In this document: positions 11,550 to 56,948 of the stretch, piece after piece | How the letters are laid out: every line of letters begins with the position of its first letter | Position numbering within the stretch: the stretch's first letter is position 1 | Assembly (NCBI GenBank): GCA_963926355.1 | Contig: CAWUWW010000006.1 | Span: 38,872 to 102,871 of the forward strand | Source of the DNA: an uncultured SAR86 cluster bacterium | Lineage (GTDB): Bacteria; Pseudomonadota; Gammaproteobacteria; Magnimaribacterales; D2472 | Length of the DNA: 64,000 nucleotides | Reading direction: 5' to 3' | Translations under genes and position numbers: made by a program | The notes under the pieces: generated by a model | Database searches by the model: none | Seen by the model: only the letters and a program-made list of their open reading frames with translations | What the model was told of the DNA's origin: nothing

Positions 11550-12824
11550 TTAATCAAATTGTTTGTCAGCACTCGCAAATAAAAGGTAGTAAATTCCGCC
11601 AAAAACAAGAAATCCACTGCATATATTAAATATTAGCGTCCAAGAGTTCGTAGCTTGAAGAATTATACCTGCAATGATCGGACTTAACAGTGCTGCAACC
11701 ATACCAAGACTCCCTGAAATTCCAAACAAAGAACCGGTATATTTTGGACCAAGGTCTGCATGGTTAACTCCATACCCCCCTGCTCCAAGTCCTGAACATA
11801 AATTAGTTAGGCATAGCAAAGTGATCACCAGCAAGATTGAGTCTTGAAAGGGAAGAAGAAATAAAAATAGTGCAGCTCCAAAAAAACCCAAACTATTAAA
11901 AAACTTTCTAACTTTAATAGTTTTATAGCCTTTTTTAATAAGCATATCTGCAGAAATACCACCTAAAATAAGAGCAAATACAGAAACAATACTTGGTACT
12001 AGTATTAGTAAAATAAATAGCTTGGATCCAAGCTCCAATCCTAAACCGCCCATTTCTCTTGAAGAGCTCATAAATTTTGGCAGGTATGAAAGGAAGGTGA
12101 ATAAGGCCCAGTTATTACAAAAAGTTGCAACAACGATAGCAGTAAAAGGCCCGTTTTTAATAACCTCTAAAAAAGGGATTGAAGGTGCTGAAGAATCTGT
12201 GGGAGCCTCAGCTTTAATATAATAAAGTTCTTCATTGGATATACTTTTATGATCTTCTGGGTATGAGGTAACCACTTTTTGCCAGAAGAAAAATAACAAT
12301 ATTCCAAGAGCCCCAAAGGAATAAAAAACCCATTCCCAGGAATATCCTTCAATAATCATAGCTGTTACAACAAGGCCGAAAACTGAGCCAAATGAGATTC
12401 CGCTATTTGTAATAGCTATCGCTCTAGTTCTTTCCTGAAAAGGAATCCATCTAGCATATATTGAGTGCCATGCTGGAAAAGTAACACCCTCTCCAAGTCC
12501 CATTAAAATTCTTATTAAAATTAAGAAGAAAAACCCACTATACGCAAAAGCTGGAGTAATTAATGTAAAGAGTGACCAGAAAAGTAGACCATATGCGAGA
12601 ACAATCTTCCCCCCATACTTATCAGCTAGAAACCCACTAAAAGTCATAGATATGATATAGCCAAAGTAAAAAGAGGCAAGAATAATACCCACCTGGGACT
12701 CACTCCATCCAAACTGGGCTTGCATGGGAATGATTGCAACAGAGATATTTACACGATCTATAAAACAAATAAATACAGCTAGAAAAGACATAAAAACTAT
12801 CCTAAATCTAACTGGAAAAATCAT
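11550..12824 (-). CDS. MFS transporter (anion:cation symporter-like)
   Basis: 424 aa with about 12 TM segments. DRVNISVAI near TM1 and a GFLADKYGGK loop (MFS D-R/K-x-G-R/K-like motif). Substrate unknown. Confidence 0.7.
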   Translation of the reverse strand: MIFPVRFRIVFMSFLAVFICFIDRVNISVAIIPMQAQFGWSESQVGIILASFYFGYIISMTFSGFLADKYGGKIVLAYGLLFWSLFTLITPAFAYSGFFFLILIRILMGLGEGVTFPAWHSIYARWIPFQERTRAIAITNSGISFGSVFGLVVTAMIIEGYSWEWVFYSFGALGILLFFFWQKVVTSYPEDHKSISNEELYYIKAEAPTDSSAPSIPFLEVIKNGPFTAIVVATFCNNWALFTFLSYLPKFMSSSREMGGLGLELGSKLFILLILVPSIVSVFALILGGISADMLIKKGYKTIKVRKFFNSLGFFGAALFLFLLPFQDSILLVITLLCLTNLCSGLGAGGYGVNHADLGPKYTGSLFGISGSLGMVAALLSPIIAGIILQATNSWTLIFNICSGFLVFGGIYYLLFASADKQFD

Positions 12825-12870
12825 GCACTAAAGATTAAAAAAATAATATTCATATCTTATATGATAAAAG

Positions 12871-14154
12871 CTATTTCTGCTTTTTAAGCCTTTGCTCAAG
12901 AGCATCTAAATTTAAATTACCCGGAGATCCTTCAGAATAATTTTTGACTTCAGAGCTTTTAAACAAAGAAATATCGGAAGCATTTTTTACAGTATTATAT
13001 GCATCTCTAAAAGGCATGCCATTGGCAACAAGCGCATAAACCTTATCTGTCATTCTCATCTCCTCATCAATAAAACTAGAAGAGTTATCTTTATTAATCT
13101 TTATAGACTTAATAAGATCAGGGACAATATTTAAACTTTTTAGGCATATTTCAAAACTTGATACCAGGCTTCTTTTGGTAAGCTGTAAATCTCTATGATA
13201 GCCGCTTGGAAGAGAAAGAAGGTTCTCTAGTTCAGATGCTTGGCCTGCAAGAATAGAATAATTAGCTCTTAAAATTTCAACCACATCTGGATTATGTTTA
13301 TTTGGCATAATTGATGAGCCTGTTAGATATTTACTATCAATATTTAATAAATTAAATTCTTGAGATAAAAATAAGCTCATGTCCCATGAAAATTTTCTTA
13401 TATCAAGCATTGGTTGCTTAAGTGTACTTAAGATTTGCATTTCATATTTTCCTCTACTGTTCTGAACATAAAGGCTATTTAATTGAACTCTTTTAAATCC
13501 TAAATCCTTAGTTACTTGCTTTCTATTAAGTGGCAAGCCAACTCCATAGCCAGCTGCTCCACCCAATGGGTTTGAATCAATCCAATTAATAGTACTATTA
13601 ATTAAATCTCCATTATCAATAAATGACTCTGCATATGAAGAGAACCAAAGACCCCAAGAAGAAGGCATTGCTCTTTGAAGATGGGTATAGCCAGGCATTG
13701 GAATATTTTCATATTTTTTAGCCAAAGATAAAAAAGTTCTGGCAATTTTTTTGTTAATTTTCTTAACCTCGAGAAGGCTGGCTTTTGCAAAAAGCCTCAT
13801 AGCAACTATTACCTGATCATTTCTGCTTCTTCCTGTATGAACTTTTTTTCCAAGATCACCTAACTCTTTAGTTAAAAAGAATTCTATAGCAGAATGGCAA
13901 TCCTCATATTTATTTGTTAATTTGAAAGACCCTTTAATAAACCTTTCCTTTAAATCTTTTAAAGATTTTTCTAATTTATTCAGCTCAACTTTCTTAAGAA
14001 CACCTATAGAATGTAAAGATTTTATATGTGCAGAAGTTGCATCAATATCATAAATAAATATAGCTCTATCAAGCTCTATATCCTCTCCAGCTAAGAATAA
14101 ATTTATCTCATCTGATGAATTGCCTCCATCTGTATTCCATAGTTTTTTAGTCAT
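12871..14154 (-). CDS. argH: argininosuccinate lyase
   Basis: HTGRSRNDQV, YTHLQRAMP and the fumarate-lyase signature GSSIMPNKHNPD. 427 aa, somewhat short for ArgH. Confidence 0.9.
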   Translation of the reverse strand: MTKKLWNTDGGNSSDEINLFLAGEDIELDRAIFIYDIDATSAHIKSLHSIGVLKKVELNKLEKSLKDLKERFIKGSFKLTNKYEDCHSAIEFFLTKELGDLGKKVHTGRSRNDQVIVAMRLFAKASLLEVKKINKKIARTFLSLAKKYENIPMPGYTHLQRAMPSSWGLWFSSYAESFIDNGDLINSTINWIDSNPLGGAAGYGVGLPLNRKQVTKDLGFKRVQLNSLYVQNSRGKYEMQILSTLKQPMLDIRKFSWDMSLFLSQEFNLLNIDSKYLTGSSIMPNKHNPDVVEILRANYSILAGQASELENLLSLPSGYHRDLQLTKRSLVSSFEICLKSLNIVPDLIKSIKINKDNSSSFIDEEMRMTDKVYALVANGMPFRDAYNTVKNASDISLFKSSEVKNYSEGSPGNLNLDALEQRLKKQK

Positions 14155-15085
14155 TTTTTATCCCTGTTAGCTCGTCTAAGTCACATGAAGAGTTTAAGTT
14201 TTGTATTGCCTGTGTAGCAGCGCCTTTTAATAGATTGTCTATAACACAACAAATAGTTACATCAGATCCATTTTTATTAAGTGAAAGGCCTCCAATAATC
14301 GCAGAGTGGGTATTAATTACCTTATTTATCATTGGTATGTCCTCTTGAACCTTTATTAGAGAATTACCCTCATAAAAATCATTGAACATTCCAAAGATCT
14401 CTAATTTATTTGAGTCTTTTTTAAGTTTAATGTGTGATGTTATTAGTATCCCTCTAAAAAAATTGCCAACATGAGGGCTGAACATTAAATCCTCATGACA
14501 ATGCCTTTGAACTTCATGCTCATGAATATGATTAGATAGAGAATAAGGGATAATATTATCTTTAAGGTTATCAGGATTATTTTTATCATTTGGAGAAGCC
14601 CCGGCTCCGCTATACCCCGATATACCCATGCAACTTACAGACCCCTCAATAAGATGTTTTATAGGAGTAATAGAAAGTTGGATGGCCGTGGCATAGCAGC
14701 CTGGGTTACTTATTCGATTAGTTGCTTTTTCTTTTGTAATTTCAGGCAACCTATATTGCCAATCTGCATCAAACCTAAAATCTGAACTTAAATCAATTAC
14801 TGTTATATCTGAGTAATTTTTATTAATAATATCAAGGTACTTAAAAGAATCATTATTTGGAAGGGCCATTATTACAATATCTATCTCATCAAGATCTATG
14901 TCTGAACTTTCTAATAAGGAGTAGGTTAAATTTAATTTTTTATATTCACTTACAGGATCTCCAGCTGAAGATTTTGAATAAATTTTTAATAGGTCAAAGT
15001 AAGGATGTTCATTGAGAATATGGATTATTTCTTGACCGACATAACCCCTGCCACCAATCATTGCAATATTAAATTTAGCTTTCAT
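14147..15085 (-). CDS. argC: N-acetyl-gamma-glutamyl-phosphate reductase
   Basis: NAD-binding IAMIGGRGYVGQE and active-site Cys context ISNPGCYAT. Start chosen at the second ATG (15085); the alternative is 15115. Confidence 0.85.
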   Translation of the reverse strand: MKAKFNIAMIGGRGYVGQEIIHILNEHPYFDLLKIYSKSSAGDPVSEYKKLNLTYSLLESSDIDLDEIDIVIMALPNNDSFKYLDIINKNYSDITVIDLSSDFRFDADWQYRLPEITKEKATNRISNPGCYATAIQLSITPIKHLIEGSVSCMGISGYSGAGASPNDKNNPDNLKDNIIPYSLSNHIHEHEVQRHCHEDLMFSPHVGNFFRGILITSHIKLKKDSNKLEIFGMFNDFYEGNSLIKVQEDIPMINKVINTHSAIIGGLSLNKNGSDVTICCVIDNLLKGAATQAIQNLNSSCDLDELTGIKND

Positions 15086-16385
15086 ATGTAATTGTTGCCG
15101 GCTGAGTAGATGCATACTTAATGCATCCTGACAGTTCGTCTGTGTCAGTTATCCCAACCCAAAAAATATTCCAATCTTCATGCCTCTGGAATCCATCACA
15201 AACGTCTTTATAAAAATTATTTATAGAGTTTTTCGATCTTGACCTCCAGAATATTTTAGTATGATTTGATGTCATCTTGTTCCACATGGCATTCCCTAAA
15301 CCCTCCCCCCTTGCTGAGCTAATTACGGCAAATTTATCCATATAAGCTATATCATGCTGATAAGACATTACTATTGCAGCTCTATTGCAAGAGCTAATAT
15401 AGAAATCTTTGGTACCGTTTGTAAAATAGTCATTAACTAGAGACCCGCCAAAAGAATTCTCTAGTATTTTAGTAAGCTTATTAATATTATTTTCATCTAG
15501 TACTTTTGAGTGGTTAATTTTATGACCTGCTTTCACTAAAGTACCGAAACCAGCATCAGTAAATAACTCTCTGTTTAAATGCAATGGCTTGGTAATAGAA
15601 ACAGAGCTATTATTTGGCAGCGACTCTAAAAGTAGCTTAATTTGTTGAAGTTTTAATTTCATGCCTGAGTGAAGCCATTCTTTAGTCATAAGCCTCTCAT
15701 AGTCATCTTTAATATTAATTGTAGAAATTAAATTATTATTTGCATCTAATATACCGCCAAGTTCGCTTAGAAAAATTACTTTGTCAGGAGCTATTTCTCT
15801 AGCTAAAGCAAGAGTGGCTTTATCTGCATTGATATTAACCACTTGACCCTCTGGGGTTCTACCAACAGGAGCAATAACTGGAACACCATCGTTTGAAATA
15901 ATATCTTTTATCTTATCTGAGAATGTCTCAATCACTTCTCCAACATATCCCAAGGATTGATTTGTAATATTGCATTCAAAAATTTCTCCAATCAAAGAAA
16001 CAGCTTTTACGCCCTCATCTTTTAATGCATCGGTAAGTTTTAAATTTTCTCTAGTAAATATAGATACTGCTACATCTAAAACTTCTTTAGTTGTAACTCT
16101 TTGGCCATCAAGAAAAGAAAACTCAATACCCTGTTCCTCAAGTTCTTCAGAGAGCATTGGGCCAGCTCCATGAACTATAATAGGTCTTAAGCCAACTTCA
16201 TCAAGAAAAGCTAAAGAAGAAACGAGATTTTCTAAATCACTTTGAATAACTGCTCCACCGACTTTAATTACAGCAAACCTATACTCGTCTGAAGAAAATC
16301 TTTCTAAATATTTTCTTATTTCCTTCTCGCTACTCATCCCGCTTAGTAGCTTTAGTATGGTATTTTTTGTAAAACTTTTATTCAT
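15075..16385 (-). CDS. argAB: bifunctional N-acetylglutamate synthase/kinase (AAK domain fused to a C-terminal GNAT domain)
   Basis: N-terminal amino-acid-kinase domain (VIKVGGAVI, PIIVHGAGP). C-terminal region YMDKFAVISSARGEGLGNAMW...IFWRSRSKNSINNFY...WNIFWVG matches the LDKF.V.....G.G...W...LFWRSR..NPIN.WY...W..FW.G pattern I recall for Xanthomonas NAGS/K and mammalian NAGS. Confidence 0.85.
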   Translation of the reverse strand: MNKSFTKNTILKLLSGMSSEKEIRKYLERFSSDEYRFAVIKVGGAVIQSDLENLVSSLAFLDEVGLRPIIVHGAGPMLSEELEEQGIEFSFLDGQRVTTKEVLDVAVSIFTRENLKLTDALKDEGVKAVSLIGEIFECNITNQSLGYVGEVIETFSDKIKDIISNDGVPVIAPVGRTPEGQVVNINADKATLALAREIAPDKVIFLSELGGILDANNNLISTINIKDDYERLMTKEWLHSGMKLKLQQIKLLLESLPNNSSVSITKPLHLNRELFTDAGFGTLVKAGHKINHSKVLDENNINKLTKILENSFGGSLVNDYFTNGTKDFYISSCNRAAIVMSYQHDIAYMDKFAVISSARGEGLGNAMWNKMTSNHTKIFWRSRSKNSINNFYKDVCDGFQRHEDWNIFWVGITDTDELSGCIKYASTQPATITYES

Positions 16386-16389
16386 TTTA

Positions 16390-17577
16390 TTATTTATTGA
16401 TGTCAGTCCAGGTAGCAGTACTTTGACCTAAAAGCTTAATAAATCCAGTGGATTCTTCTACACCCCATGAAGCTGATTGTGCATATATAGCTTCTTTACT
16501 AACAAGAATTTTCTTAGCCTCCACTTGCACAGCCTCAGCTTTCCCACCTGATAATAAAATAGTGACTATACCGTTAACTGGTTTTTGAATATCTTCTAGG
16601 AAGTTTTCTAGGTTTCTTGTAAGGGGATCAAAATAAAAACCTCCATACACAAGCTCAACCCATTTTTTACCTACTATAGGCTTAAAGAAGTTTTGTTTAT
16701 CAGTAAAAATAGCCTCTTCAAGTGCTCTATGGGCTCTTTGAAGAATTGTTATTCCAGGAGCTTCAAATAAAAACCTACCTTTGATACCAATAATGGTGTC
16801 ACTTGCAAATATTTCTCTTCCAACTCCATACTTGCCTCCCAATGAATTTAAAGTTCTAAGAATTTCTGGACCATTTATTAACTTCCCGTTAAGTTTTTTT
16901 GCCTCACCTTTCTTAAATTCAATAGTGATTTTTTTAGTAGTCTGAGGGTACTTATCTGGGGTACTGCAAAGAATGTAGCTCTCAGAAGAAGGTTCTTTCC
17001 ATTCATCAATTTCTGATCCGGAAACTGTAGCTCCCATTAGGTTTTCGTTAACACTATACGTGGAGTGTAAAGAAGAAACTTTAAAGCCTCTATCTTGAAG
17101 ATACTCTTTTTCATAACCTCTAACATCAGACACTTTATTTTGAATTTCTCTAATTGGAGTAATTGTTTTGTAATTGCCAAAAGCTTGAATAGATAAGTCA
17201 AATCTTACTTGATCATTACCCATACCAGTGCAGCCATGAGAAATATATTTTGTATTAAGCTTTTTACATAATTTTATTGCCTCTTTAACAATTAAATATC
17301 TGTCAGAGCACAGAGCTGGGTACTTGTCTTGATATAAAGAACCTGACCAAACCAATGGTTTGATAATTTCTTTCCATAATGATGAGTCTATATTTACATT
17401 AATATGCTTTTTTGCACCTAGCTCATTTGCTCTTTTAGTAATTTTATCCTCTTCTTTCTTGGAAGTACCGCCTGTATTTACAAATATTGTATGAACTTCG
17501 AAGCCCTGTTCTATAAGATAAGGTACACAAAAACTTGTGTCCAAACCTCCAGAAAATGCTAAAACAATTTTTTTCAT
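16390..17577 (-). CDS. argG: argininosuccinate synthase
   Basis: MKKIVLAFSGGLDTS N-terminus (ATP PPi loop), HGCTGMGNDQVRF and GATVSGSE motifs. 395 aa. Confidence 0.95.
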   Translation of the reverse strand: MKKIVLAFSGGLDTSFCVPYLIEQGFEVHTIFVNTGGTSKKEEDKITKRANELGAKKHINVNIDSSLWKEIIKPLVWSGSLYQDKYPALCSDRYLIVKEAIKLCKKLNTKYISHGCTGMGNDQVRFDLSIQAFGNYKTITPIREIQNKVSDVRGYEKEYLQDRGFKVSSLHSTYSVNENLMGATVSGSEIDEWKEPSSESYILCSTPDKYPQTTKKITIEFKKGEAKKLNGKLINGPEILRTLNSLGGKYGVGREIFASDTIIGIKGRFLFEAPGITILQRAHRALEEAIFTDKQNFFKPIVGKKWVELVYGGFYFDPLTRNLENFLEDIQKPVNGIVTILLSGGKAEAVQVEAKKILVSKEAIYAQSASWGVEESTGFIKLLGQSTATWTDINK

Positions 17578-17578
17578 T

Positions 17579-18580
17579 TTATTTATCCTTTAATAATGTT
17601 GTTAATAATGATTTTTGAACATGCATTCTATTCCCAGCCTCTTGAACAGCCACGCAATAATCAGCATCCATGACGGCATCAGTAGCTTTTATATTCCTTC
17701 TTAATGGGAGGCAGTGACTGAATATTGCATTATCAGTCATAGACATTTTATTTTCATCAACTATAAAGTGCTTGTATTGATCTCTAATAATTTTTTCTGG
17801 TTCTGGATTTCCATAATAATTAAGTGATCCCCAGCTTTTTGCATAAACAACATCAGCATTTGAGTACCCCTCTTCAATATTATGCGTTACTGTAAAAGAA
17901 GTTCCATTTGCCTTACAGTTAGATTTAGCTTGGGATGTATAGTTATTATGAAGAATATAGTCATCTGATGGGCACAATAACCTTACATTCATTCCAAATT
18001 TACTTGCTATCATCAAAGAAGAGTTTGCTACTGCGGTGTTCAAGGGTTTTGGATGATAGGTCCATGTAAGTAAGTAATCTTTTCCAGAGAGGTCTCCCAG
18101 CTGTTCTTGAAGCGTTAATATATGAGCTAGCTCTTGGCATGGATGAGTGATGGTCTCCATGTTTACCACAGGTACGGAAGCATATTTAGAGAAGCTATTA
18201 ATTATATTGTCAGATAAATCCTCATCGAGATTAATAAACTTAGGAAATGCTCTAATAGCAATAAGATCGCAGTACTCTGATAAAACTCCGGCAACCTCAA
18301 TAATGTGCTCTTCTGATTCAGAATCCATTATAGAATTTAATTTAAACTCTATAGGCCAGGCATCTTTTCCAGGATGAAGAACTACTGCATAACCACCTAA
18401 TTCTTGCACACCAATTTCAAAACTAGTTCTAGTTCTCATAGATGGATTGAAAAATAATAACGCCACAGATTTATTCTTAAGCGTTTCCTGAAATTTATTT
18501 ATTTTAAGATCTTTAGCATAATCCAAGATATCTTGTAATTCGTCCTTAGACCAGTCTGATGTAGAGATAAAATTTTTCAT
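17579..18580 (-). CDS. argF: N-acetylornithine carbamoyltransferase (AOTCase, argF')
   Basis: FFNPSMRTRTSFE (SMRTR rather than the OTCase STRTR), GKDAWPIEF, METITHPCQELAH, LTWTYHPKPLNTAVANS and FSHCLPLRRNIKATDAVMD are near-identical to the X. campestris AOTCase sequence as I recall it. The track start at 18613 is a TTG lying inside a terminator hairpin, so I use the ATG at 18580. Confidence 0.88.
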   Translation of the reverse strand: MKNFISTSDWSKDELQDILDYAKDLKINKFQETLKNKSVALLFFNPSMRTRTSFEIGVQELGGYAVVLHPGKDAWPIEFKLNSIMDSESEEHIIEVAGVLSEYCDLIAIRAFPKFINLDEDLSDNIINSFSKYASVPVVNMETITHPCQELAHILTLQEQLGDLSGKDYLLTWTYHPKPLNTAVANSSLMIASKFGMNVRLLCPSDDYILHNNYTSQAKSNCKANGTSFTVTHNIEEGYSNADVVYAKSWGSLNYYGNPEPEKIIRDQYKHFIVDENKMSMTDNAIFSHCLPLRRNIKATDAVMDADYCVAVQEAGNRMHVQKSLLTTLLKDK

Positions 18581-18596
18581 AATTAGTATTTTAAGT

Positions 18597-18623
18597 AAAA
18601 AAAAACCCAGCAAATGGCTGGGT
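18597..18623 (-). terminator. rho-independent terminator/attenuator hairpin 16 nt upstream of the argF' ATG
   Basis: The minus strand reads ACCCAGC-CAUUU-GCUGGGU followed by U8-9. It is a 7-bp GC-rich stem with a 5-nt loop. Confidence 0.75.
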
Positions 18624-18648
18624 CTAATTTACAAATAGATAGATCCAG

Positions 18649-18693
18649 CTATATTGGCAGTACCCGTCTTACTTGTATTTTAAAGTTGTTCAT
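18649..18693 (-). promoter_or_regulatory. candidate arg-operon leader peptide ORF (MNNFKIQVRRVLPI*)
   Basis: ATG at 18693, tandem Arg codons AGA CGG at 18669-18664, and a UAG stop overlapping the 5' arm of an antiterminator that competes with the terminator at 18597-18623. No clear SD. Confidence 0.4.
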
Positions 18694-18703
18694 TTCAGAA
18701 ATT

Positions 18704-18739
18704 AGTATATATAAAATATTAAGTTTGTAAACTTTACAA
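18704..18739 (-). promoter_or_regulatory. candidate promoter (TTTACA-N16-TATACT) overlapped by a perfect 15-bp palindrome TTGTAAAcTTTACAA
   Basis: -35 at 18726-18731, -10 at 18704-18709 (minus strand), palindrome at 18725-18739. Many alternative AT-rich hexamers exist nearby. Confidence 0.3.
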
Positions 18740-18746
18740 CCTTGAC

Positions 18747-19190
18747 CTATAGCCATCGTCTTGTTTTTTTTGAGTAATCACTCCATTCAGTAAATTTTTG
18801 GCTCATAACCTTTTCTTCAGGAATGATCTGAAATACCGTTATGTATATCATAAAACTAACTATAAAAATCGGTGTTAATAAGGCTCCAAAAGATATGCCA
18901 GAGCCTAGAATGATAAATACCATACCTAGATACATGGGGTTTCTAGATATATTAAATGGCCCTGATGTAACTAAATATGACGCCTTGTCAGGACTCATTG
19001 GATTGATTGTAGTTTGTACTTTTTTAAACTCTTTTGCGGCATAAATTAATATTGACATTCCTAATAGAATGAGAAGAAATCCAATAAGAATATTGGTACT
19101 GTATTTAAATTGAGGAAAAATTAAATTTACAAGATAGTTGATTGCTAAGAAAAAGAAAGTAACTATCGGCGGAGGAATCCTTGTATGCAT
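18747..19190 (-). CDS. isoprenylcysteine carboxyl methyltransferase (ICMT)/phospholipid methyltransferase family membrane protein
   Basis: 147 aa with 4 TM segments. SGPFNISRNPMYLGMV matches the ICMT-family RNPMY motif. Confidence 0.65.
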   Translation of the reverse strand: MHTRIPPPIVTFFFLAINYLVNLIFPQFKYSTNILIGFLLILLGMSILIYAAKEFKKVQTTINPMSPDKASYLVTSGPFNISRNPMYLGMVFIILGSGISFGALLTPIFIVSFMIYITVFQIIPEEKVMSQKFTEWSDYSKKTRRWL

Positions 19191-19220
19191 TAAGCAAGTT
19201 TAAAATAAATTCTTTTTAAT

Positions 19221-19305
19221 TGGTAGGGATGGAGGGGATCGAACCCCCACGCCTTGCGGCACTAGGTTCTAAACCTAGCGTGTCTACCAGTTCCACCACA
19301 TCCCC
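19221..19305 (-). tRNA. tRNA-Leu (anticodon UAG)
   Basis: 85 nt, folded by hand. Acceptor GGGGAUG/CAUCCCU (G1-U72), 3-bp D stem, anticodon arm CUAGG-UUUAGAA-CCUAG, 13-nt long variable arm UGCCGCAAGGCGU, T arm GGGGG-UUCGAUC-CCCUC, encoded ACCA end. Confidence 0.92.
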
Positions 19306-19354
19306 AGAAAGAAGCATTATATAGATTATTATTAATTAAAGGAAAGGTTAAATT

Positions 19355-19744
19355 TTACAAATCGTAAGAAATTTGATTCTTTCTACTTTTGTGAATTGTA
19401 TATAGTGAAATACAAAAAATGAAACCCACTATAAAAGTTGCCACTGAGAAGTCAGTAAAGCCTTCATAAATAAAACCAAAAATTTTTGCAACCATCATTG
19501 TTGAAGTGATGTAAATCAAAATAGTTCCTATTTGAACTTTTGATGAAGAGTAAACATACCTAATGGTTAAATAGCCACAAGCCAATATAAATCCAGCATA
19601 GGTCCTAACCAGGATTGATTGATCAGCACCTTCTATAGAAAATGGAATGAAAATATTATTAACATTCGGACCAAAAACAGTAACTGCCCCCATTACTAAA
19701 AATAATAAGCCAATAGAAACTAAAAATATTCTAAAAATAATCAT
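19355..19744 (-). CDS. small 4-TM membrane protein, function unknown
   Basis: 129 aa from the ATG at 19744. The track start is a TTG at 19801. ATGA overlap with the stop of the upstream small ORF. Confidence 0.5.
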   Translation of the reverse strand: MIIFRIFLVSIGLLFLVMGAVTVFGPNVNNIFIPFSIEGADQSILVRTYAGFILACGYLTIRYVYSSSKVQIGTILIYITSTMMVAKIFGFIYEGFTDFSVATFIVGFIFCISLYTIHKSRKNQISYDL

Positions 19745-19953
19745 AATACTCCAAGCATATAAAGGGCTATAAGAAAAGAAATTCCTCCAACACCCATCCA
19801 AATATACATTTCTTTATAATTTTTAAACTTATATGAGTTAATTGCAAGGAAACAGCAAAAAATTGGAGCAACTACCAAAACCCCATATCCAATTAATATT
19901 GCCAAAGGTATGAATGCTAATAGTAAAAAAGCTTGTAAAAACCACTTATTCAT
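19741..19953 (-). CDS. small 2-3-TM membrane protein, function unknown
   Basis: 70 aa from the ATG at 19953 (MNKWFLQAFLLLAF...). The track start at 19968 is a TTG. Translationally coupled (ATGA) to the next ORF. Confidence 0.45.
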   Translation of the reverse strand: MNKWFLQAFLLLAFIPLAILIGYGVLVVAPIFCCFLAINSYKFKNYKEMYIWMGVGGISFLIALYMLGVL

Positions 19954-19990
19954 AGGGTTATAAGACAACTATTTGAATATATTGTCAATT

Positions 19991-20638
19991 CTATTCGGAC
20001 TCAAACTCTAAATTATCACTGTCCATGGCGGATATCTCAGTTTGAATCTCTGCAATTGTTTGATTTAGCTGAATTTTATAAGTATTAAGTGCTTGAACTG
20101 AATCATCGATTAAAATAAGTTGGGTTTCTAATGATTTAATAGTTCTTTGAATATCTTGCATCTCCGAGATACCAAGAGTAAGTTTGTTTATTTGTAATTC
20201 ATTATTTTTAATAGTCTGTTTATTTAATTTAATTTCTTTGGAAGATGTTTGAGTGATGGTAAGCAAGTCTTTAGAGATTTTTTCTAACTCTGTTAGAGAT
20301 TTACTTAATTTGGCAATATTAACTTTATTTTTTTTGTTACTTAAATCCCAAAGCTTTCTAACCTCTTTATCTAAGAATTGTATAGAGGAGCTAATATCAG
20401 TAAGAGAGTCATTGTTAGTTTCATCTGCAATATTGATTTGTTCTTCAATGATTACCAATCTATTATCTATTAATTCTAAAGTTGTATTAATCGACTTTGA
20501 TTCAAAACTTTGCCATATAGCAAGAGATAAAATACTCATAAAAACAAGAATGTATATAAAACCAATAAATAAGCCTCCTGAGCTAGATTTATTTAAGTAG
20601 GCAGGTGATGTTTTGTCTGGTCTTATGTCTGAGTTCAT
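19991..20638 (-). CDS. N-terminally membrane-anchored coiled-coil protein, function unknown
   Basis: One TM segment (GLFIGFIYILVFMSILSLAIW) followed by about 160 aa of heptad-like I/L/K/E/N/Q-rich sequence. Confidence 0.5.
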   Translation of the reverse strand: MNSDIRPDKTSPAYLNKSSSGGLFIGFIYILVFMSILSLAIWQSFESKSINTTLELIDNRLVIIEEQINIADETNNDSLTDISSSIQFLDKEVRKLWDLSNKKNKVNIAKLSKSLTELEKISKDLLTITQTSSKEIKLNKQTIKNNELQINKLTLGISEMQDIQRTIKSLETQLILIDDSVQALNTYKIQLNQTIAEIQTEISAMDSDNLEFESE

Positions 20639-20705
20639 GTTTTTATAAATGATTTTATTAGCCTATAATAATTAAATCATATTTTACATTAACTAAAGAT
20701 TATTT

Positions 20706-21818
20706 ATGAATTTAGATTTTTCAAATGACCAAAAATTTCTTCAAGAAGAGGCGAGAAAGTTTCTCGAGAAAGAAGGCTCAATCAATAGAAATAGAAAAGT
20801 ATTAGATTCTGATCATAATACTGATATTGAACTCTGGAATAAAATAGTTGATCTTGGATGGACTGGAATTAGAATTCCTGAAGAGTATGGGGGGCTTGGC
20901 TTATCTCATTTAGAACTATGTGTTGTTGCAGAGGAGCTAGGAAGATTTCTTGCTCCGGTGCCTTTCTCATCTTCTGTCTACCTATTTACAGAAGCTATTA
21001 TAAAGTATGCCAATGAGGACATGAAAAAAGAGATCTTACCTAAAATAATCACTGGTCAAATTATTGGAACTCTTGCAGTGACTGAGGAGTTATGTGCGCC
21101 CACAGCCTTTAATATAAAAACTGAAGTTATTAATAACCATATCTCAGGCAAAAAAATTGCAGTACCAGATGCTGGAATTGCCACACATTCTATTATTGTA
21201 GCTAAATCAGGGGACTCTATAAGCTTAAACCTTGTAGATCATTCTTTAAATCAAGTTACTATCTCCCATCAAGAAAATATTGATGAAAGTAGAGGTCATT
21301 TTTCAATTGTTCTTAATGAAGCTCAGTGTGAACTTATTGGGGATACGTCTAATGGATGGCATTTATTTGAATCATTAATGGATCAGGCTGCTGTTTTATT
21401 TAGCTTTGAGCAGCTAGGCGGGTCTCAAGCTTCCTTGGATATGGCAGTTAGTTATGCAAAAGAGCGATATGCTTTTGGTAGACCGATAGGATCCTTTCAA
21501 GCCATTAAACACAAACTAGCTGATATGTATATTGCATTAACTTTAGCAAAATCAAATTGCTATTATGCAGCCTGGGCTCTTTCCTCAGATTCATCAGACC
21601 TGCCTACAGCTGCAGCAACAGCAAGAGTAAGCTCAACAAAGGCATATCAATTCTGCTCAAAAGAGAACATCCAAACACACGGAGGTAATGGTTTTACATG
21701 GGAATATGATTGTCATATGTTCTATCGAAGATCAAAACTTCTTTCTGTAAATATTGGCTCTCTTGGGAAATGGAAAGAGAAGTTAGTAAGCAGTCTTGAA
21801 CAATCAAATAAAAATTAG
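20706..21818 (+). CDS. acyl-CoA dehydrogenase family protein (shorter partner of an adjacent pair)
   Basis: 370 aa. ACAD N-terminal pattern (LWNKIVDLGWTGIRIPEEYGG), C-terminal FGRPIGSFQAIKHKLADM and HGGNGFTWEYD. Confidence 0.8.
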   Translation: MNLDFSNDQKFLQEEARKFLEKEGSINRNRKVLDSDHNTDIELWNKIVDLGWTGIRIPEEYGGLGLSHLELCVVAEELGRFLAPVPFSSSVYLFTEAIIKYANEDMKKEILPKIITGQIIGTLAVTEELCAPTAFNIKTEVINNHISGKKIAVPDAGIATHSIIVAKSGDSISLNLVDHSLNQVTISHQENIDESRGHFSIVLNEAQCELIGDTSNGWHLFESLMDQAAVLFSFEQLGGSQASLDMAVSYAKERYAFGRPIGSFQAIKHKLADMYIALTLAKSNCYYAAWALSSDSSDLPTAAATARVSSTKAYQFCSKENIQTHGGNGFTWEYDCHMFYRRSKLLSVNIGSLGKWKEKLVSSLEQSNKN

Positions 21819-46849: not shown

Positions 46850-46874
46850 AAAAAAAAAGCCCAGTAAACTGGGC
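46850..46874 (-). terminator. rho-independent terminator after the 903-aa TonB-dependent receptor
   Basis: Minus strand: GCCCAG-UUUA-CUGGGC followed by U9. Confidence 0.85.
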
Positions 46875-46897
46875 TTTTAAAATATCTTTTTTAAATT

Positions 46898-49609
46898 CTA
46901 GAAAGACGTACCAAACTTAAGACCCCATGTTCTTGGGTCAGTAAATGAACCGTATAGCTGACCACCTTGAAGGTTACTAGCTGCACGGATTGAATTTAAC
47001 TGTCTGTCGTCAGCAAGATTCTTAGCATATAAAGATACATACCAATCAGCGTCATTAGGCTCATGCTTAACTACAAGATCCCATGTTTTTTGCTCAGGGA
47101 TATCAAATCTAGACATTCCAAAAGGATCGCCGTTAGCAGCTCCTCTGAATCTGTAAGCAATTCTAGCTGAAGTCATTCCATTATCAGTATTGATCATTTG
47201 TGTATAAGCTAAACTGTATGACAAGTCAGTAGTTCCTGGTAAATCAAAACCGTTAAGGTTTACTTCAGTACCAGCAGCTGCAGGACAGCCAGCTGAGAAT
47301 GAGAATGGAACCGTACAATTATATCCAGCTGATTTAAATGCAACTACACCATTGTTACCAACAGCACCTGTTAAACCACCGATAGCATCAAGATTACCAA
47401 GATATGCAGCAGTTCCAGTGGCATTTGTTGGATTCATGTAATTAACAGCCATAGTGTCATTAGTGATTTCATTTTTAGCTTTTAACCAGCTAAATTCAAC
47501 CAAACTAGTTTCTGATAGGTATAAGGACATAAGGCCTTCAAAACCCATGATTTCAGCATCGGCATTGTAGTTATGTGATCCTTGATCTTCGATAGTAGCT
47601 AATAACATCCCTTGATTATTGTTATGGAATATATTCATATTTAAAAGCATTGCTCCATCAAGTAAAATGCTTTTTATACCAAAGTCTAGAACTCCAGTTT
47701 CTTCTTGGTCATAAGTATCAGGATTTGATCCTGCATTAACACCACCAGCTTTTATAGCAGTACTGTAGCTACCATAAACCATTATGTCGTTTGAAATATC
47801 ATGCTGTAATGCAATTTTATAAGCAAAAGCATCATCTGTTTGAACTTTATATTGGCTATATCCTAAATCCATTCTATTAACATCTGGTTTAGAAGGTCCG
47901 CCATATGCAATCCAAAGCTGCCCAGCTAAATCGTTGTAGTTCATACTTGCAACAGTATCGTCATTATAACGAGCGCCTAAAGTAAGTTTAGTTGCATCTG
48001 AAAGATCAACATACAACTCACCGTATAAAGCTTTTGATTTAATTCTTACGTGCTGATCACTAATAGTTCCACCAAGGTCCCAAGGAACAACAGCATCAGG
48101 ATTGCCATAGACAGCCATAACAGCAGCCATATCAGCAAAACCAGTGGCAGCAGCGCCTAATACAGACTGATAAAATGCAACTCCACCTTTTTTAGACCAA
48201 TCTAAACCAAGGCTTTGCATAACTGCATTGTAAGGATGATTTGCAAAACTTGTCATGATTTGAGTACCAGCAGTTTGAACTCTGTACTCGTTATCATTTC
48301 TTTGATCATAATTGTAGTAACCAACAGTGAAGTTAACAGGACCGTCATAGTCTGAAACTAAGTTAATTTCTGCTTGGTCAGACCAAGTGCTCACGTCAGA
48401 AAAGTTATAAGCTCTATCAGTAGTAACTACTTCACAGAATTGTTTTTGGCCACCAAAACATAAATTTGCTGAAATTGGAGGCAATCCAAGAGCTGCTAAA
48501 GCACCTGTTAATGGAGCAGAAGATATACTACCGTCATCATCATTCATTTGATGAAAATCTCTATTATCATAAGAGTACTTAATAATCATTCTTAATGAGT
48601 CATTAATATCATGGTTAAGCTCTAAATTTGCAATTGAAACATCTTGCTCATGCGTAGGCTCTCTATCAAGGTATAAAGTACCAAATCCATCAGACAATGA
48701 AGCACCGTATCTATTTGCAATTACTCCAGAATCTAGTAGTCCAAGAAATCCAAATAAACCAGCAACGTGACCTCTTGTATCTGCAGCAGTGTTTATACTG
48801 CCTCTTTCATAAGGACTACATCCATAAAACTGATCTTGTTTACAAAAAGTGACTTCTTCTTGTGGTCTGTTGTCATCACTAGATTGCTCTGAATAAGTTA
48901 ATTTTAATTGTGTTGTATCAGAAATATCCCAATCTAGTGAAAGTCTTAGACCTAGATCATTTCTGTCATCCATTTTATTTCCAGTAGCACCGTTAGTGAC
49001 CATTCCATCTCTTTTATTAGACATAACAGCCAATCTTGTTCTTACAGAATCTGAAAGAGGAAGGTTTATAACAGCATTAGTTGTTTGCTTACCCCAAGTA
49101 CCCACTTCAATATCAACACTTCCTTCTACTTCGCTTGAAGGTCTAGCTGTAACTAAGTTAATAACTCCAGCAACTGAATTTCTTCCAAATAATGTTCCTT
49201 GAGGTCCTTTAAGAACTTCAATTCTTTCAAGATCCATAAAGCCCATGTCATTCATATAACTAACATTAGTACTATGACCATTAACCGATGTAACCATTGA
49301 GGAAACAACAGCAGCTCCAACTCCGTAAGAGCCGATACCTCTCATAGTAAAACCTGAACCAGAACCAACACCTTTAGCTACTTCAAAACCAGGAACCACT
49401 TCTGCCAAATCTGTTAAGTCATAGATTTGATCAGCTGATAATTGGTCGCTTGAAAAAGCTTCAATTGATAAAGCAAGATCTTGAATAGATTCTGCTTTCT
49501 TGGTTGCGGTAACAACTACTTCCTCGATCTCTTGTGCAGAAGCTGCAACAGAGATGAATACTATATTAAGTAGTAACGCATTTTTTAAAAATAATTTTAT
49601 ATTTGACAT
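46898..49609 (-). CDS. TonB-dependent receptor
   Basis: Signal peptide, TonB box EEVVVTA, plug motif IEVLKGPQGTLFGRNSVAGVIN, 22-strand-sized barrel, C-terminal ...TWGLKFGTSF ending in Phe. Confidence 0.92.
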   Translation of the reverse strand: MSNIKLFLKNALLLNIVFISVAASAQEIEEVVVTATKKAESIQDLALSIEAFSSDQLSADQIYDLTDLAEVVPGFEVAKGVGSGSGFTMRGIGSYGVGAAVVSSMVTSVNGHSTNVSYMNDMGFMDLERIEVLKGPQGTLFGRNSVAGVINLVTARPSSEVEGSVDIEVGTWGKQTTNAVINLPLSDSVRTRLAVMSNKRDGMVTNGATGNKMDDRNDLGLRLSLDWDISDTTQLKLTYSEQSSDDNRPQEEVTFCKQDQFYGCSPYERGSINTAADTRGHVAGLFGFLGLLDSGVIANRYGASLSDGFGTLYLDREPTHEQDVSIANLELNHDINDSLRMIIKYSYDNRDFHQMNDDDGSISSAPLTGALAALGLPPISANLCFGGQKQFCEVVTTDRAYNFSDVSTWSDQAEINLVSDYDGPVNFTVGYYNYDQRNDNEYRVQTAGTQIMTSFANHPYNAVMQSLGLDWSKKGGVAFYQSVLGAAATGFADMAAVMAVYGNPDAVVPWDLGGTISDQHVRIKSKALYGELYVDLSDATKLTLGARYNDDTVASMNYNDLAGQLWIAYGGPSKPDVNRMDLGYSQYKVQTDDAFAYKIALQHDISNDIMVYGSYSTAIKAGGVNAGSNPDTYDQEETGVLDFGIKSILLDGAMLLNMNIFHNNNQGMLLATIEDQGSHNYNADAEIMGFEGLMSLYLSETSLVEFSWLKAKNEITNDTMAVNYMNPTNATGTAAYLGNLDAIGGLTGAVGNNGVVAFKSAGYNCTVPFSFSAGCPAAAGTEVNLNGFDLPGTTDLSYSLAYTQMINTDNGMTSARIAYRFRGAANGDPFGMSRFDIPEQKTWDLVVKHEPNDADWYVSLYAKNLADDRQLNSIRAASNLQGGQLYGSFTDPRTWGLKFGTSF

Positions 49610-56902: not shown

Positions 56903-56910
56903 TAAAAAAA

Positions 56911-56931
56911 CCCTCTATAAAAGAGGGTCTT
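56911..56931. terminator. bidirectional rho-independent terminator between tRNA-Arg (+) and the convergent minus-strand operon
   Basis: CCCTCT-ATAAA-AGAGGG, flanked by an A7 run upstream and TCTTT downstream. Confidence 0.7.
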
Positions 56932-56948
56932 TAAAAGTTTCAAACATC

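What the first reader, a model, noticed from the sequence alone, without database searches (positions are those of the whole stretch)
18580..18740. Candidate translation-coupled attenuator (Arg-Arg leader peptide with antiterminator/terminator alternative) in front of the arg operon
A strong terminator (ACCCAGC-CAUUU-GCUGGGU-U8) ends 16 nt before the argF' ATG, leaving no room for a promoter after it. Transcription of argF'-argG-argAB-argC-argH must therefore read through it.

Upstream is a 14-codon ORF, AUG AAC AAC UUU AAA AUA CAA GUA AGA CGG GUA CUG CCA AUA UAG, with two adjacent Arg codons, one of them the GC-rich CGG. Its stop codon overlaps the segment AGCUGGAUCU. That segment can pair with AGACCCAGC (8 bp, one A-C mismatch, 15-nt loop), which contains the whole 5' arm of the terminator, so the two structures are mutually exclusive.

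The geometry fits classical attenuation:
- A ribosome reaching the UAG masks the antiterminator arm, so the terminator forms.
- A ribosome stalled at AGA-CGG, about 13 nt upstream, leaves that arm free.

A possible promoter (TTTACA-N16-TATACT) and a perfect 15-bp palindrome TTGTAAAcTTTACAA lie just upstream.

Caveats:
- There are only two Arg codons.
- The leader ORF has no obvious SD and a very short 5' UTR.
- The hairpin could simply be the terminator of the upstream methyltransferase gene.

I am not aware of leader-peptide attenuation being the textbook mode of arg biosynthesis control in Gammaproteobacteria, where ArgR repression is the usual mechanism.
Basis: inference. Interest (0 to 1): 0.65.

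Follow-up and report, generated by a model that had tools for sequence, protein, structure and literature searches.

The report
Arginine leader-peptide attenuator before arg operon
A roughly 100-base leader in front of the arginine-biosynthesis operon of a marine SAR86 bacterium encodes a 14-codon mini-gene with two arginine codons and three competing RNA hairpins. This is the classic trp-operon attenuation design, applied here to arginine and conserved across many relatives, and I found no paper describing it.

Summary
On the minus strand there is:
- a promoter-like site (TTTACA-N16-TATACT, 18731-18704);
- a 14-codon ORF (18693-18649, MNNFKIQVRRVLPI*, AGA-CGG at codons 9-10);
- a segment overlapping the stop codon (AGCUGGAUCU, 18650-18641) that can pair with the terminator 5' arm (AGACCCAGC, 18625-18617);
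- a strong terminator whose U-tract ends 16 nt before the argF' ATG.

Comparative data turn the guess into a well-supported model.
- The element travels with argF', whatever gene lies upstream.
- A search pattern that did not constrain the ORF retrieved 85 distinct AT-rich leaders. Of these, 74 have an ATG exactly 14 codons before the TAG, and codon 10 is CGG in 77 of 83.
- CGG makes up only 0.7% of Arg codons in this window.
- A third hairpin (1:2) buries the Arg codons against the antiterminator arm.
- Relatives in Kangiellaceae carry leaders with runs of 3-5 Arg codons. The Xanthomonadales counterpart is filed in Rfam as the "sRNA" Xoo5.
- The same scaffold carrying Lys codons precedes dapB-dapA-dapD-lysA.

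The promoter spacing implies a leaderless start. The 15-bp palindrome is not conserved.

Verdict: a new, arginine-specific member of the leader-peptide attenuator class. It is supported by sequence comparison but untested experimentally.

The parts
18726..18731 (-). -35-like hexamer TTTACA of the leader promoter
   Evidence: TTTACA is the best -35 in 55 of 73 leaders in which a -10-like hexamer was found. The extended GTTTACAAA is conserved in the argF' group.
18704..18709 (-). -10-like hexamer TATACT, 10 nt before the leader ATG
   Evidence: TATACT occurs in 59 of 76 leaders, and the hexamer ends 7-10 nt before the ATG in 73 of 76. This implies a 5' UTR of about 0-4 nt.
18649..18693 (-). Leader ORF, 14 codons plus TAG: MNNFKIQVRRVLPI*
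   Evidence: In 74 of 85 distinct homologues an ATG lies exactly 14 codons before the TAG. The frame is open for at least 14 codons in 83 of 85, against 14 and 4 of 85 in the other two frames. There are no indels in the ORF columns of alignment A1.
18664..18669 (-). Regulatory Arg codons AGA-CGG (codons 9-10)
   Evidence: Codon 10 is CGG in 77 of 83 leaders and codon 9 is AGA in 50. CGG is 4 of 606 Arg codons in the window's 50 long ORFs. Other lineages keep Arg here with different codons.
18657..18677 (-). Region 1: 5' strand of the 1:2 (anti-antiterminator) hairpin, codons 6-12 including both Arg codons
   Evidence: The minimum-free-energy fold of 18680-18626 pairs 18677-18657 with 18649-18630 at -11.0 kcal/mol. 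Across 41 leaders the median is -14.9 with median z = -3.2. The manually drawn structure is 73% paired, against 33-44% when the partners are slid.
18630..18650 (-). Region 2: core AGCUGGAUCU (18650-18641) overlaps the stop codon and pairs either with region 1 or with region 3
   Evidence: TAGCTGG is invariant in 12 of 13 short-leader loci found through argF' alone. L011 has TAGGTTGGG, which is still complementary.
18617..18625 (-). Region 3: AGACCCAGC, the terminator 5' arm, which is also the antiterminator 3' arm
18597..18611 (-). Region 4: GCUGGGUUU (terminator 3' arm) and U-tract
   Evidence: 9 pairs, then T-run. Energy -13.4 kcal/mol.
17579..18580 (-). argF' (N-acetylornithine carbamoyltransferase), first gene controlled
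   Evidence: NF003384, 526 bits. 86% identical to SAR86 genomes.
11550..17577 (-). Rest of the transcription unit: argG, argA/B fusion, argC, argH, then an MFS transporter (12824-11550)
   Evidence: No convincing internal terminator. The MFS is 66.5% identical to the MFS of the second leader-controlled operon.

Best explanation
This is a ribosome-mediated (leader-peptide) transcription attenuator that reports arginyl-tRNA supply and controls argF'-argG-argA/B-argC-argH, and probably the MFS gene that follows.

Proposed sequence of events:
1. Transcription starts a few bases before the leader AUG.
2. A ribosome translates the 14-codon ORF while RNA polymerase transcribes the leader.
3. With charged tRNA-Arg plentiful, the ribosome runs to the UAG. 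There it covers AGCUGGAUCU (region 2), so regions 3 and 4 fold into the terminator and transcription stops at about 18597.
4. With charged tRNA-Arg scarce, the ribosome stalls with AGA or CGG in the A site. That holds region 1 and protects only to about 18654, leaving region 2 free. Region 2 pairs with the terminator 5' arm and polymerase reads into argF'.
5. With no translation at all, region 1 pairs with region 2 and the terminator forms.

Shown here: the sequence elements, their conservation, the ORF constraint and the mutually exclusive pairings. Inferred: the transcription start, translation of the ORF, the stall site and the dependence on arginine.
For: - The anatomy is exactly as described.
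- The element is linked to argF', not to the upstream gene. In relatives the upstream neighbour is tRNA-Leu or unrelated ORFs.
- There is an ORF constraint under an ORF-blind search. 74 of 85 leaders have an ATG exactly 14 codons before the TAG. The frame is open in 83 of 85, against 14 and 4 of 85 for the control frames. Length changes come in multiples of three. Codons 2-8 vary in amino acid.
- Arg is kept with different synonymous codons in different lineages, which argues for selection on the amino acid or tRNA rather than on a nucleotide motif. Examples: AGA-CGG; AGA-AAC-AGG-AGA in L010; AGG-AGA in L011; CGN runs of 3-5 in Kangiellaceae; CGT-GCC-CGC-CGA in Xanthomonadales.
- Specificity tracks the pathway. 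A version of the scaffold rich in Lys codons precedes dapB-dapA-dapD-lysA.
- The three hairpins have comparable energies: medians of -14.9, -11.9 and -14.6 kcal/mol. The 1:2 structure shows compensatory changes.
- Of 79 argF' loci from different species, 49 have an Arg-codon cluster, a GCYGG segment and a CCCRGY/RCYGGG-U terminator upstream.
- In Xanthomonas oryzae the counterpart region gives discrete short transcripts of about 100-130 nt. Their 5' end, mapped by RACE, lies 2 nt before the leader AUG (PMC3039613).
- Two consecutive Arg codons in a short upstream ORF do sense arginine in Salmonella speF (PMC6386406).
- No ARG box is found at the promoter.
Against: - There are no expression data for SAR86, and neither the transcription start nor translation is demonstrated.
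- Many leaders of the TonB-receptor group carry a single Arg codon.
- CGG could be conserved for RNA reasons. It can pair with CUG of region 2, and these were the only pairs RNAalifold called, all three invariant.
- RNAalifold did not recover the 1:2 hairpin from the mixed alignment. Support for that hairpin rests on per-sequence folds and a manually drawn structure.
- The antiterminator core was fixed by my metagenome search pattern, so only the 13 loci found through argF' test it without bias.
- The window's own z-scores are modest.
- The cloned 3' end of Xoo5 lies just before the terminator hairpin, not at its U-tract.
- In one contig (L188) the Lys-type leader also contains two Arg codons.
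Confidence: 0.8

Rival explanations
1. The leader is translated and controls termination, but it is not arginine-specific. The very rare CGG codon simply imposes a pause, so the element reports general translation capacity or ribosome availability, as ermC-type and hflX-type leaders do.
For: CGG is 0.7% of Arg codons. Many TonB-receptor-group leaders have only this one Arg codon. That second operon has no obvious link to arginine.
Against: Lineages without CGG keep two to five Arg codons of other types at the same place. The main target is always the arg operon. The Lys-codon version sits on a lysine operon.
Confidence: 0.08
2. The promoter-to-terminator unit is a free-standing small RNA gene acting in trans, as Xoo5 is annotated. 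The arg operon is then expressed only by incidental read-through.
For: It is a self-contained unit of about 100 nt with its own promoter and terminator. There are weak sub-threshold Rfam matches to sRNA families (PrrF 26.8 bits, AbsR28 22.5 bits). Xoo5 was detected as a stable short RNA.
Against: The Rfam matches lie far below the gathering scores and mainly align the terminator. The conserved ORF frame and Arg codons are not explained. It is always co-oriented with and directly in front of arg, TonB-receptor or lys operons that have no promoter of their own. A trans role for the terminated leader is not excluded and would be compatible with attenuation.
Confidence: 0.05
3. It is a structured RNA switch that binds a ligand or a protein, and the ORF is incidental.
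For: Nucleotide blocks are highly conserved (ACGGG, TAGCTGG, the ACCCAGC/GCTGGGT arms). The hairpins are mutually exclusive.
Against: There is no Rfam riboswitch match. The variable part has no conserved pocket-like core. The frame, length, start and stop of the ORF are conserved while its sequence drifts. The K-for-R exchange between lys and arg operons has no explanation in a ligand model.
Confidence: 0.04
4. It is just the terminator of the upstream methyltransferase gene, or an insulator, with constitutive leaky read-through into the arg genes.
For: The hairpin lies downstream of that gene, and no other terminator separates them.
Against: The hairpin starts 122 nt after that gene's stop codon and lies behind a promoter-like site. 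In relatives the same leader follows tRNA-Leu or other genes. The conserved ORF and alternative pairings are unexplained.
Confidence: 0.03

Closest known systems
E. coli trp operon attenuator (trpL); details recalled from established knowledge
   Same: 14-codon leader peptide. Two adjacent regulatory codons near codons 9-11. The stop codon lies just before or inside region 2. Four regions form 1:2, 2:3 (antiterminator) and 3:4 (terminator plus U-tract). It sits directly before the first biosynthetic gene.
   Different: It senses Arg, not Trp. There is no SD, and the promoter spacing predicts a leaderless or nearly leaderless mRNA. One of the two codons is the rarest Arg codon of the genome. 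No repressor operator is detectable. There is no sequence similarity.
Rfam RF02242 'Xoo5' (Xanthomonadaceae sRNA; Liang et al. 2011, PMC3039613)
   Same: Same position and orientation directly upstream of argF'. It contains a small ORF with an R-x-R-R motif. Some members share TAGCTGG...ACCCAGC...GCTGGGTTTT. Its 5' end lies 2 nt before the ORF's AUG.
   Different: The Rfam model does not detect the window element even at E <= 10. The ORF has 29-46 codons and is GC-rich. It is annotated as an sRNA and was never interpreted as a leader. The model ends before the terminator.
Salmonella speF leader orf34 (Ben-Zvi et al. 2019, PMC6386406)
   Same: Two consecutive Arg codons in a short upstream ORF. 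Ribosome pausing at low arginine selects an alternative mRNA structure.
   Different: The output there is RNase G sensitivity plus Rho-dependent termination of a polyamine gene. It is not an intrinsic terminator in front of an arginine biosynthesis operon.
Mycobacterial leaderless polycysteine short-ORF attenuators (bioRxiv 10.1101/834739)
   Same: A leaderless short ORF as first cistron, whose cognate codons tune expression of the downstream biosynthetic operon.
   Different: Actinobacteria and Cys codons. I did not read that paper's mechanism in detail. Here the leaderless start is inferred only from promoter spacing.
ArgR / ARG-box repression (textbook control of arg genes in Enterobacteria)
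   Same: Same pathway under control.
   Different: That is a protein repressor acting at the promoter. No ARG-box-like site lies near this promoter, and window-wide matches are at or below chance. Whether the genome has argR could not be tested.

Membership tests
Leader-peptide (ribosome-mediated) transcription attenuators | Short ORF upstream of a biosynthetic operon, enriched in codons for the pathway's amino acid | tested here: met
   14-codon ORF with AGA-CGG. It is conserved in 74 of 85 homologues, and Arg is kept with varying codons across lineages.
Leader-peptide (ribosome-mediated) transcription attenuators | Intrinsic terminator between the leader ORF and the first structural gene, with no promoter after it | tested here: met
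   9-bp stem plus T9, ending 16 nt before the argF' ATG. No promoter-like site follows in the window or conserved in relatives.
Leader-peptide (ribosome-mediated) transcription attenuators | Antiterminator that uses the terminator 5' arm and is masked by a ribosome at the stop codon | tested here: met
   AGCUGGAUCU with AGACCCAGC, -10.9 kcal/mol. 84% paired in 41 leaders against 14-46% when slid. The stop codon overlaps the arm. The core is ascertainment-biased in the metagenome set but present in the 13 loci found through argF'.
Leader-peptide (ribosome-mediated) transcription attenuators | Anti-antiterminator (1:2) that includes the regulatory codons | tested here: met
   Per-sequence folds give a median of -14.9 kcal/mol and z = -3.2. 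The manual structure is 73% paired against at most 44% when slid, and its covariation score exceeds all 500 shuffles. Caveat: RNAalifold did not recover it from the mixed alignment.
Leader-peptide (ribosome-mediated) transcription attenuators | The leader ORF is translated | not testable with these tools
   There is no SD. The -10 hexamer ends 7-10 nt before the ATG in 73 of 76 leaders, which suggests leaderless initiation. Only 10 of 50 window genes have an SD-like motif.
Leader-peptide (ribosome-mediated) transcription attenuators | Read-through rises when the cognate charged tRNA is limiting | not testable with these tools
   Needs Term-seq, reporter or in vitro assays.
Rfam RF02242 Xoo5 | Covariance-model score at or above the gathering threshold (50 bits) | tested here: not met
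   No Xoo5 match in window 17000-21000 at E <= 10, nor in SAR86 loci L003 and L016 at gathering. Xanthomonadales loci score 53-115 bits.
Rfam RF02242 Xoo5 | Located directly upstream of, and co-oriented with, argF' | tested here: met
   True of the window element and of all 13 Xoo5 hits.
ArgR operator (ARG box) | Match to TNTGAATWWWWATTCANW overlapping the promoter | tested here: not met
   No match with up to 3 mismatches between 18690 and 18760. There are 74 matches in the window against 97 expected. The local palindrome is not conserved.
Known trans-acting sRNA families, riboswitches, T-box | Rfam match at gathering score | tested here: not met
   Best matches are PrrF at 26.8 of 90 bits and AbsR28 at 22.5 of 50 bits, mostly over the terminator. 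There is no riboswitch or T-box match.

The most novel reading that the evidence does not exclude
An old, unrecognised family of Arg-codon leader-peptide attenuators is the main regulator of acetylornithine-carbamoyltransferase-type arg operons across Xanthomonadales, Kangiellaceae and SAR86. The Rfam "sRNA" Xoo5 would be one of its members.

In streamlined SAR86 the family has shrunk to a leaderless 14-codon ORF whose key sensor is a single, extremely rare CGG codon, that is, the charging of a minor tRNA-Arg. There it has also been copied onto a TonB-receptor/P450/MFS operon. Re-coded with Lys codons, it sits on a dapB-dapA-dapD-lysA operon. Together these would form a small regulon that works without any transcription factor.
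Probability: 0.4. Interest if true: 0.7.

Novelty: new member of a known kind. Interest (0 to 1): 0.6.

Why it matters
Arginine and lysine are not among the amino acids classically listed as controlled by leader-peptide attenuation (trp, his, phe, leu, thr, ilv). Textbook arginine control is the ArgR repressor.

If this holds, three things follow.
- A whole branch of Gammaproteobacteria that uses the acetylornithine carbamoyltransferase route regulates arginine synthesis purely in cis.
- An Rfam "sRNA" family (Xoo5) should be re-annotated as an operon leader.
- The very abundant but hard-to-culture SAR86 group gains a readable marker of arginine limitation. The ratio of leader to argF' reads in ocean metatranscriptomes would report it.

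The leaderless start and the use of the genome's rarest Arg codon would also make it a compact model for how few codons a ribosome-based sensor needs.

Tried and rejected
- **Rfam.** No family explains the window element. The PrrF, RyhB and AbsR28 matches are sub-threshold and terminator-driven.
- **RNAalifold.** On the mixed 41-sequence alignment it returned only three invariant pairs, CGG with CUG. I therefore relied on per-sequence folds and a manually specified structure with controls.
- **Further copies in the window.** The covariance model R1 found only the leader itself at 92.6 bits. The hits at 46853-46915 and 56904-57010 are plain bidirectional terminators.
- **Promoter inside or after the terminator giving a leaderless argF'.** TTGCTG-N15-TAAAAT fails the scan thresholds and is not conserved in relatives. 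Rejected.
- **Palindrome as operator.** It is perfect only in the window, 6 of 7 in the L003 group, and 5 of 7 or fewer elsewhere. No ARG box is present. Not supported.
- **argR in the window.** None of 20 small ORFs matches ArgR domains.
- **Literature.** Nine searches found no description of an Arg-codon leader attenuator for arginine biosynthesis. Subscription journals are largely outside the library.
- **Chance hits.** Three metagenome hits (L100, L141, L161) are ordinary enterobacterial gene-end terminators, which shows the pattern's low background.
Full report
**Where the window comes from and how the locus is laid out**

The argF' product is 82-86% identical to SAR86-cluster genomes. 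The window has 33.7% G+C. On the minus strand the order is:
- tRNA-Leu (19305-19221);
- a PEMT/ICMT-family methyltransferase (19190-18747);
- a 166-nt spacer;
- argF' (N-acetylornithine carbamoyltransferase, NF003384, 526 bits), argG, an argA/B fusion, argC and argH;
- an MFS transporter.

The genes are packed, and no convincing terminator lies inside the cluster.

**Check of the observation**

- -35 TTTACA at 18731-18726 and -10 TATACT at 18709-18704;
- ORF from ATG 18693 to TAG 18649, MNNFKIQVRRVLPI*, with AGA-CGG at 18669-18664;
- AGCUGGAUCU at 18650-18641, overlapping the stop codon;
- terminator AGACCCAGC / CAUUU / GCUGGGUUU plus U-tract, 18625-18597 (9 pairs);
- 16 nt from the U-tract to the argF' ATG at 18580.

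ViennaRNA energies are -11.0 kcal/mol for a 1:2 hairpin, -10.9 for the 2:3 antiterminator and -13.4 for the terminator. In this single sequence the folds are only modestly better than shuffles (z = -1.7 and -2.0). The window alone therefore proves little.

**Relatives found through the argF' protein, with no constraint on the leader**

Thirteen SAR86-type loci keep the whole arrangement (L001-L011, L022, L027). Each has GTTTACAAA...TATACT, an ATG a few bases later, a 14-codon ORF (15 in L010), Arg at codons 9-10, a TAG embedded in TAGCTGG, and the ACCCAGC/GCTGGGT terminator.

The upstream neighbour differs between loci. It is tRNA-Leu directly in some and unrelated ORFs in others. The element therefore belongs to argF' and not to the methyltransferase gene.

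**An ORF-blind metagenome search**

I scanned metagenome contigs with TAGCTGG-N15-35-ACCCAGC-N3-7-GCTGGGTTTT, which says nothing about an ORF. Results for the 85 distinct AT-rich hits:
- 74 have an ATG exactly 14 codons upstream of the TAG. The rest have 15 codons, a GTG start, or a stop shifted by a few bases.
- The frame is open for at least 14 codons in 83 of 85, against 14 of 85 and 4 of 85 in the other two frames.
- Codon 10 is CGG in 77 of 83, and codon 9 is AGA in 50.

Codons 2-8 differ freely in amino acid. Alignment A1 has no indel inside the ORF columns, whereas indels do occur in the non-coding spacer and loop. Length differences are whole codons. This is the signature of a translated frame whose peptide sequence does not matter.

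**The Arg codons are selected as Arg codons**

Different lineages use different codons at the equivalent place:
- AGA-CGG in the main SAR86 group;
- AGA-AAC-AGG-AGA in L010;
- AGG-AGA in L011;
- CGG-AGA in L027;
- runs of three to five CGN codons in Kangiella, Aliikangiella and related genomes, for example VNKQPAFSQIAIIRRRRRSSYAGVR*;
- CGT-GCC-CGC-CGA (S-R-A-R-R-P) in Xanthomonadales.

In this window CGG is 4 of 606 Arg codons (0.7%) and AGA is 72%. The leader thus pairs the commonest Arg codon with the rarest.

I cannot tell which of the two is the sensor. CGG may also be held in place by pairing with CUG of region 2. Those were the only pairs RNAalifold called, and all three are invariant.

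**Structures**

- *Antiterminator (2:3).* Paired in 84% of cells across 41 leaders, against 14-46% when the partner is slid. The core was fixed by my pattern, so the unbiased support comes from the 13 protein-derived loci.
- *Anti-antiterminator (1:2).* In the window 18677-18657 pairs with 18649-18630, placing AGA-CGG opposite GGAUCUAUC. Per-sequence folds give a median of -14.9 kcal/mol and a median z of -3.2. A manually drawn version is 73% paired against 33-44% when slid. It shows compensatory changes in the outer stem (for example C-G to A-U at three pairs), and its covariation score exceeds all 500 shuffles.
- *Caveat.* RNAalifold on the heterogeneous alignment failed to recover this hairpin.

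**Geometry (inference from standard ribosome footprints)**

- With CGG in the A site, the mRNA is covered to about 18654, so region 2 (from 18650) is just free.
- With UAG in the A site, it is covered to about 18639, which hides AGCUGGAUCU.

This matches the classical model. From memory, it also resembles E. coli trpL (14 codons, two regulatory codons at positions 10-11).

**Start of the transcript**

In 73 of 76 leaders a -10-like hexamer ends 7-10 nt before the ATG. The hexamer is TATACT in 59 of them. None has an SD-like motif. That predicts a 5' UTR of about 0-4 nt.

Only 10 of 50 window genes have an SD-like motif, so the lack of an SD is not disqualifying.

**Link to Xoo5**

In Xanthomonadales the region directly upstream of argF' matches Rfam RF02242 "Xoo5" in 13 of 22 loci tested, always co-oriented with argF'. 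Xoo5 was found in Xanthomonas oryzae as transcripts of about 100-130 nt, with the 5' end mapped by RACE (PMC3039613).

The first position of the Rfam model lies 2 nt before the AUG of the conserved small ORF (...SARMASGMTSRARRPE...). That is independent experimental support for a nearly leaderless leader mRNA and for accumulation of short leader transcripts.

The model ends just before the terminator hairpin, so the 3' end does not prove termination at the U-tract. The authors did not interpret Xoo5 as an arg leader.

The Xoo5 model does not detect the SAR86 element. I therefore treat the two as related by position and shared arms, not as one Rfam family.

Overall, 49 of 79 species-level argF' loci have an Arg cluster, a GCYGG segment and a CCCRGY/RCYGGG-U terminator upstream.

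**Two further contexts**

- The same Arg-type leader (for example MLKINLHKNRELAQ* or MLNVNLHRRRGASA*, always with CGG at codon 10) precedes an operon for a TonB-dependent receptor, a 205-aa protein, a cytochrome P450 and an MFS transporter. That MFS is 66.5% identical to the MFS that follows argH in the window.
- A version with Lys codons (MKILRNNKAKLKPAI*) and the same three hairpins precedes dapB-dapA-dapD-lysA. In contig L188 that lysine operon is followed directly by the Arg leader and argF'. There the Lys leader (…KESKRKPAI*) and the Arg leader (…KERNRRPAI*) look like paralogues, although the Lys one also holds two Arg codons.

A change of codon identity that follows the pathway is hard to explain except by ribosome-based sensing.

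**What is not supported**

- The 15-bp palindrome is perfect only in the window.
- No E. coli-type ARG box lies near the promoter.
- There is no second copy of the leader in the window.
- No Rfam sRNA, riboswitch or T-box family matches.

**Literature**

Nine full-text searches found no description of leader-peptide attenuation of arginine biosynthesis. The nearest precedents are:
- the two-Arg-codon orf34 of Salmonella speF (PMC6386406);
- leaderless Cys-codon attenuators in mycobacteria (bioRxiv 10.1101/834739).

The library lacks most subscription journals, so prior description cannot be excluded.

**Verdict**

Translation of the ORF, the start site and the arginine dependence remain inferences.

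It is a new, arginine-specific member of a textbook class. Its notable twists are the leaderless start, the rare-codon sensor, the small cis-regulon and the Lys-coded sibling. I put confidence in the mechanism at about 0.8 and interest at 0.6.

Noticed in passing
L083, L087, L091, L105, L111, L113, L118, L121, L125, L146, L148, L163, L173, L179 (leader just upstream of the first ORF); window 11550-12824 (-): The same Arg-type leader precedes an operon for a TonB-dependent receptor, a 205-aa protein with no family match, a cytochrome P450 and an MFS transporter. That MFS is 66.5% identical to the MFS that follows argH in the window. The substrate is unknown, and a link to arginine or nitrogen scavenging is only a guess.
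   Followed up: partly
L150, L164, L183, L185, L188 (first match, about 55-118): A Lys-codon version of the scaffold (MKILRNNKAKLKPAI*, MCSVSKLNRKESKRKPAI*) has the same TAGCTGG/ACCCAGC/GCTGGGT hairpins and precedes dapB-dapA-dapD-lysA. In L188 this operon is followed directly by the Arg leader and argF'. It is a candidate lysine leader-peptide attenuator.
   Followed up: partly
L072 2768-2891, L054 2747-2870, and 11 further Xanthomonadales loci: Rfam family Xoo5, annotated as an sRNA, lies directly upstream of and co-oriented with argF'. It encodes a conserved small ORF with S-R-A-R-R-P, and its RACE-mapped 5' end is 2 nt before that ORF's AUG. It looks like the arg operon leader rather than a free-standing sRNA.
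   Followed up: partly
L013, L016, L019, L023 (about 30-170 nt upstream of argF'); L012, L015, L017, L018: Other SAR86 clades lack the 14-codon leader. Some have an ORF of about 40 codons ending RRRRSI*, RRLRSI* or KLRSL*, followed at once by a weak hairpin 8-30 nt before the argF' ATG, in some cases without a U-tract. In others a panD-like gene ends ...QR(I/L)RSL* before a similar hairpin. This may be a translational rather than a transcriptional form of Arg sensing.
   Followed up: no
window 18704-18693 and 76 homologous leaders: The -10 hexamer ends 7-10 nt before the leader ATG in 73 of 76 leaders, and no SD is present. This predicts leaderless or nearly leaderless translation, which as far as I know is unusual for Gammaproteobacteria. 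Only 10 of 50 long ORFs in the window have an SD-like motif.
   Followed up: partly
window 18725-18739: The perfect palindrome TTGTAAAGTTTACAA overlaps the -35. Its left half matches 6 of 7 in the L003 group but 5 of 7 or fewer in most other leaders. It could be a lineage-specific operator or chance in AT-rich DNA.
   Followed up: partly
window 46850-46885 and 56904-56935: Two G+C-rich hairpins flanked by A-runs and T-runs, that is, bidirectional terminators. One lies directly after tRNA-Arg(CCT). They were picked up weakly by the leader covariance model but are unrelated to it.
   Followed up: yes
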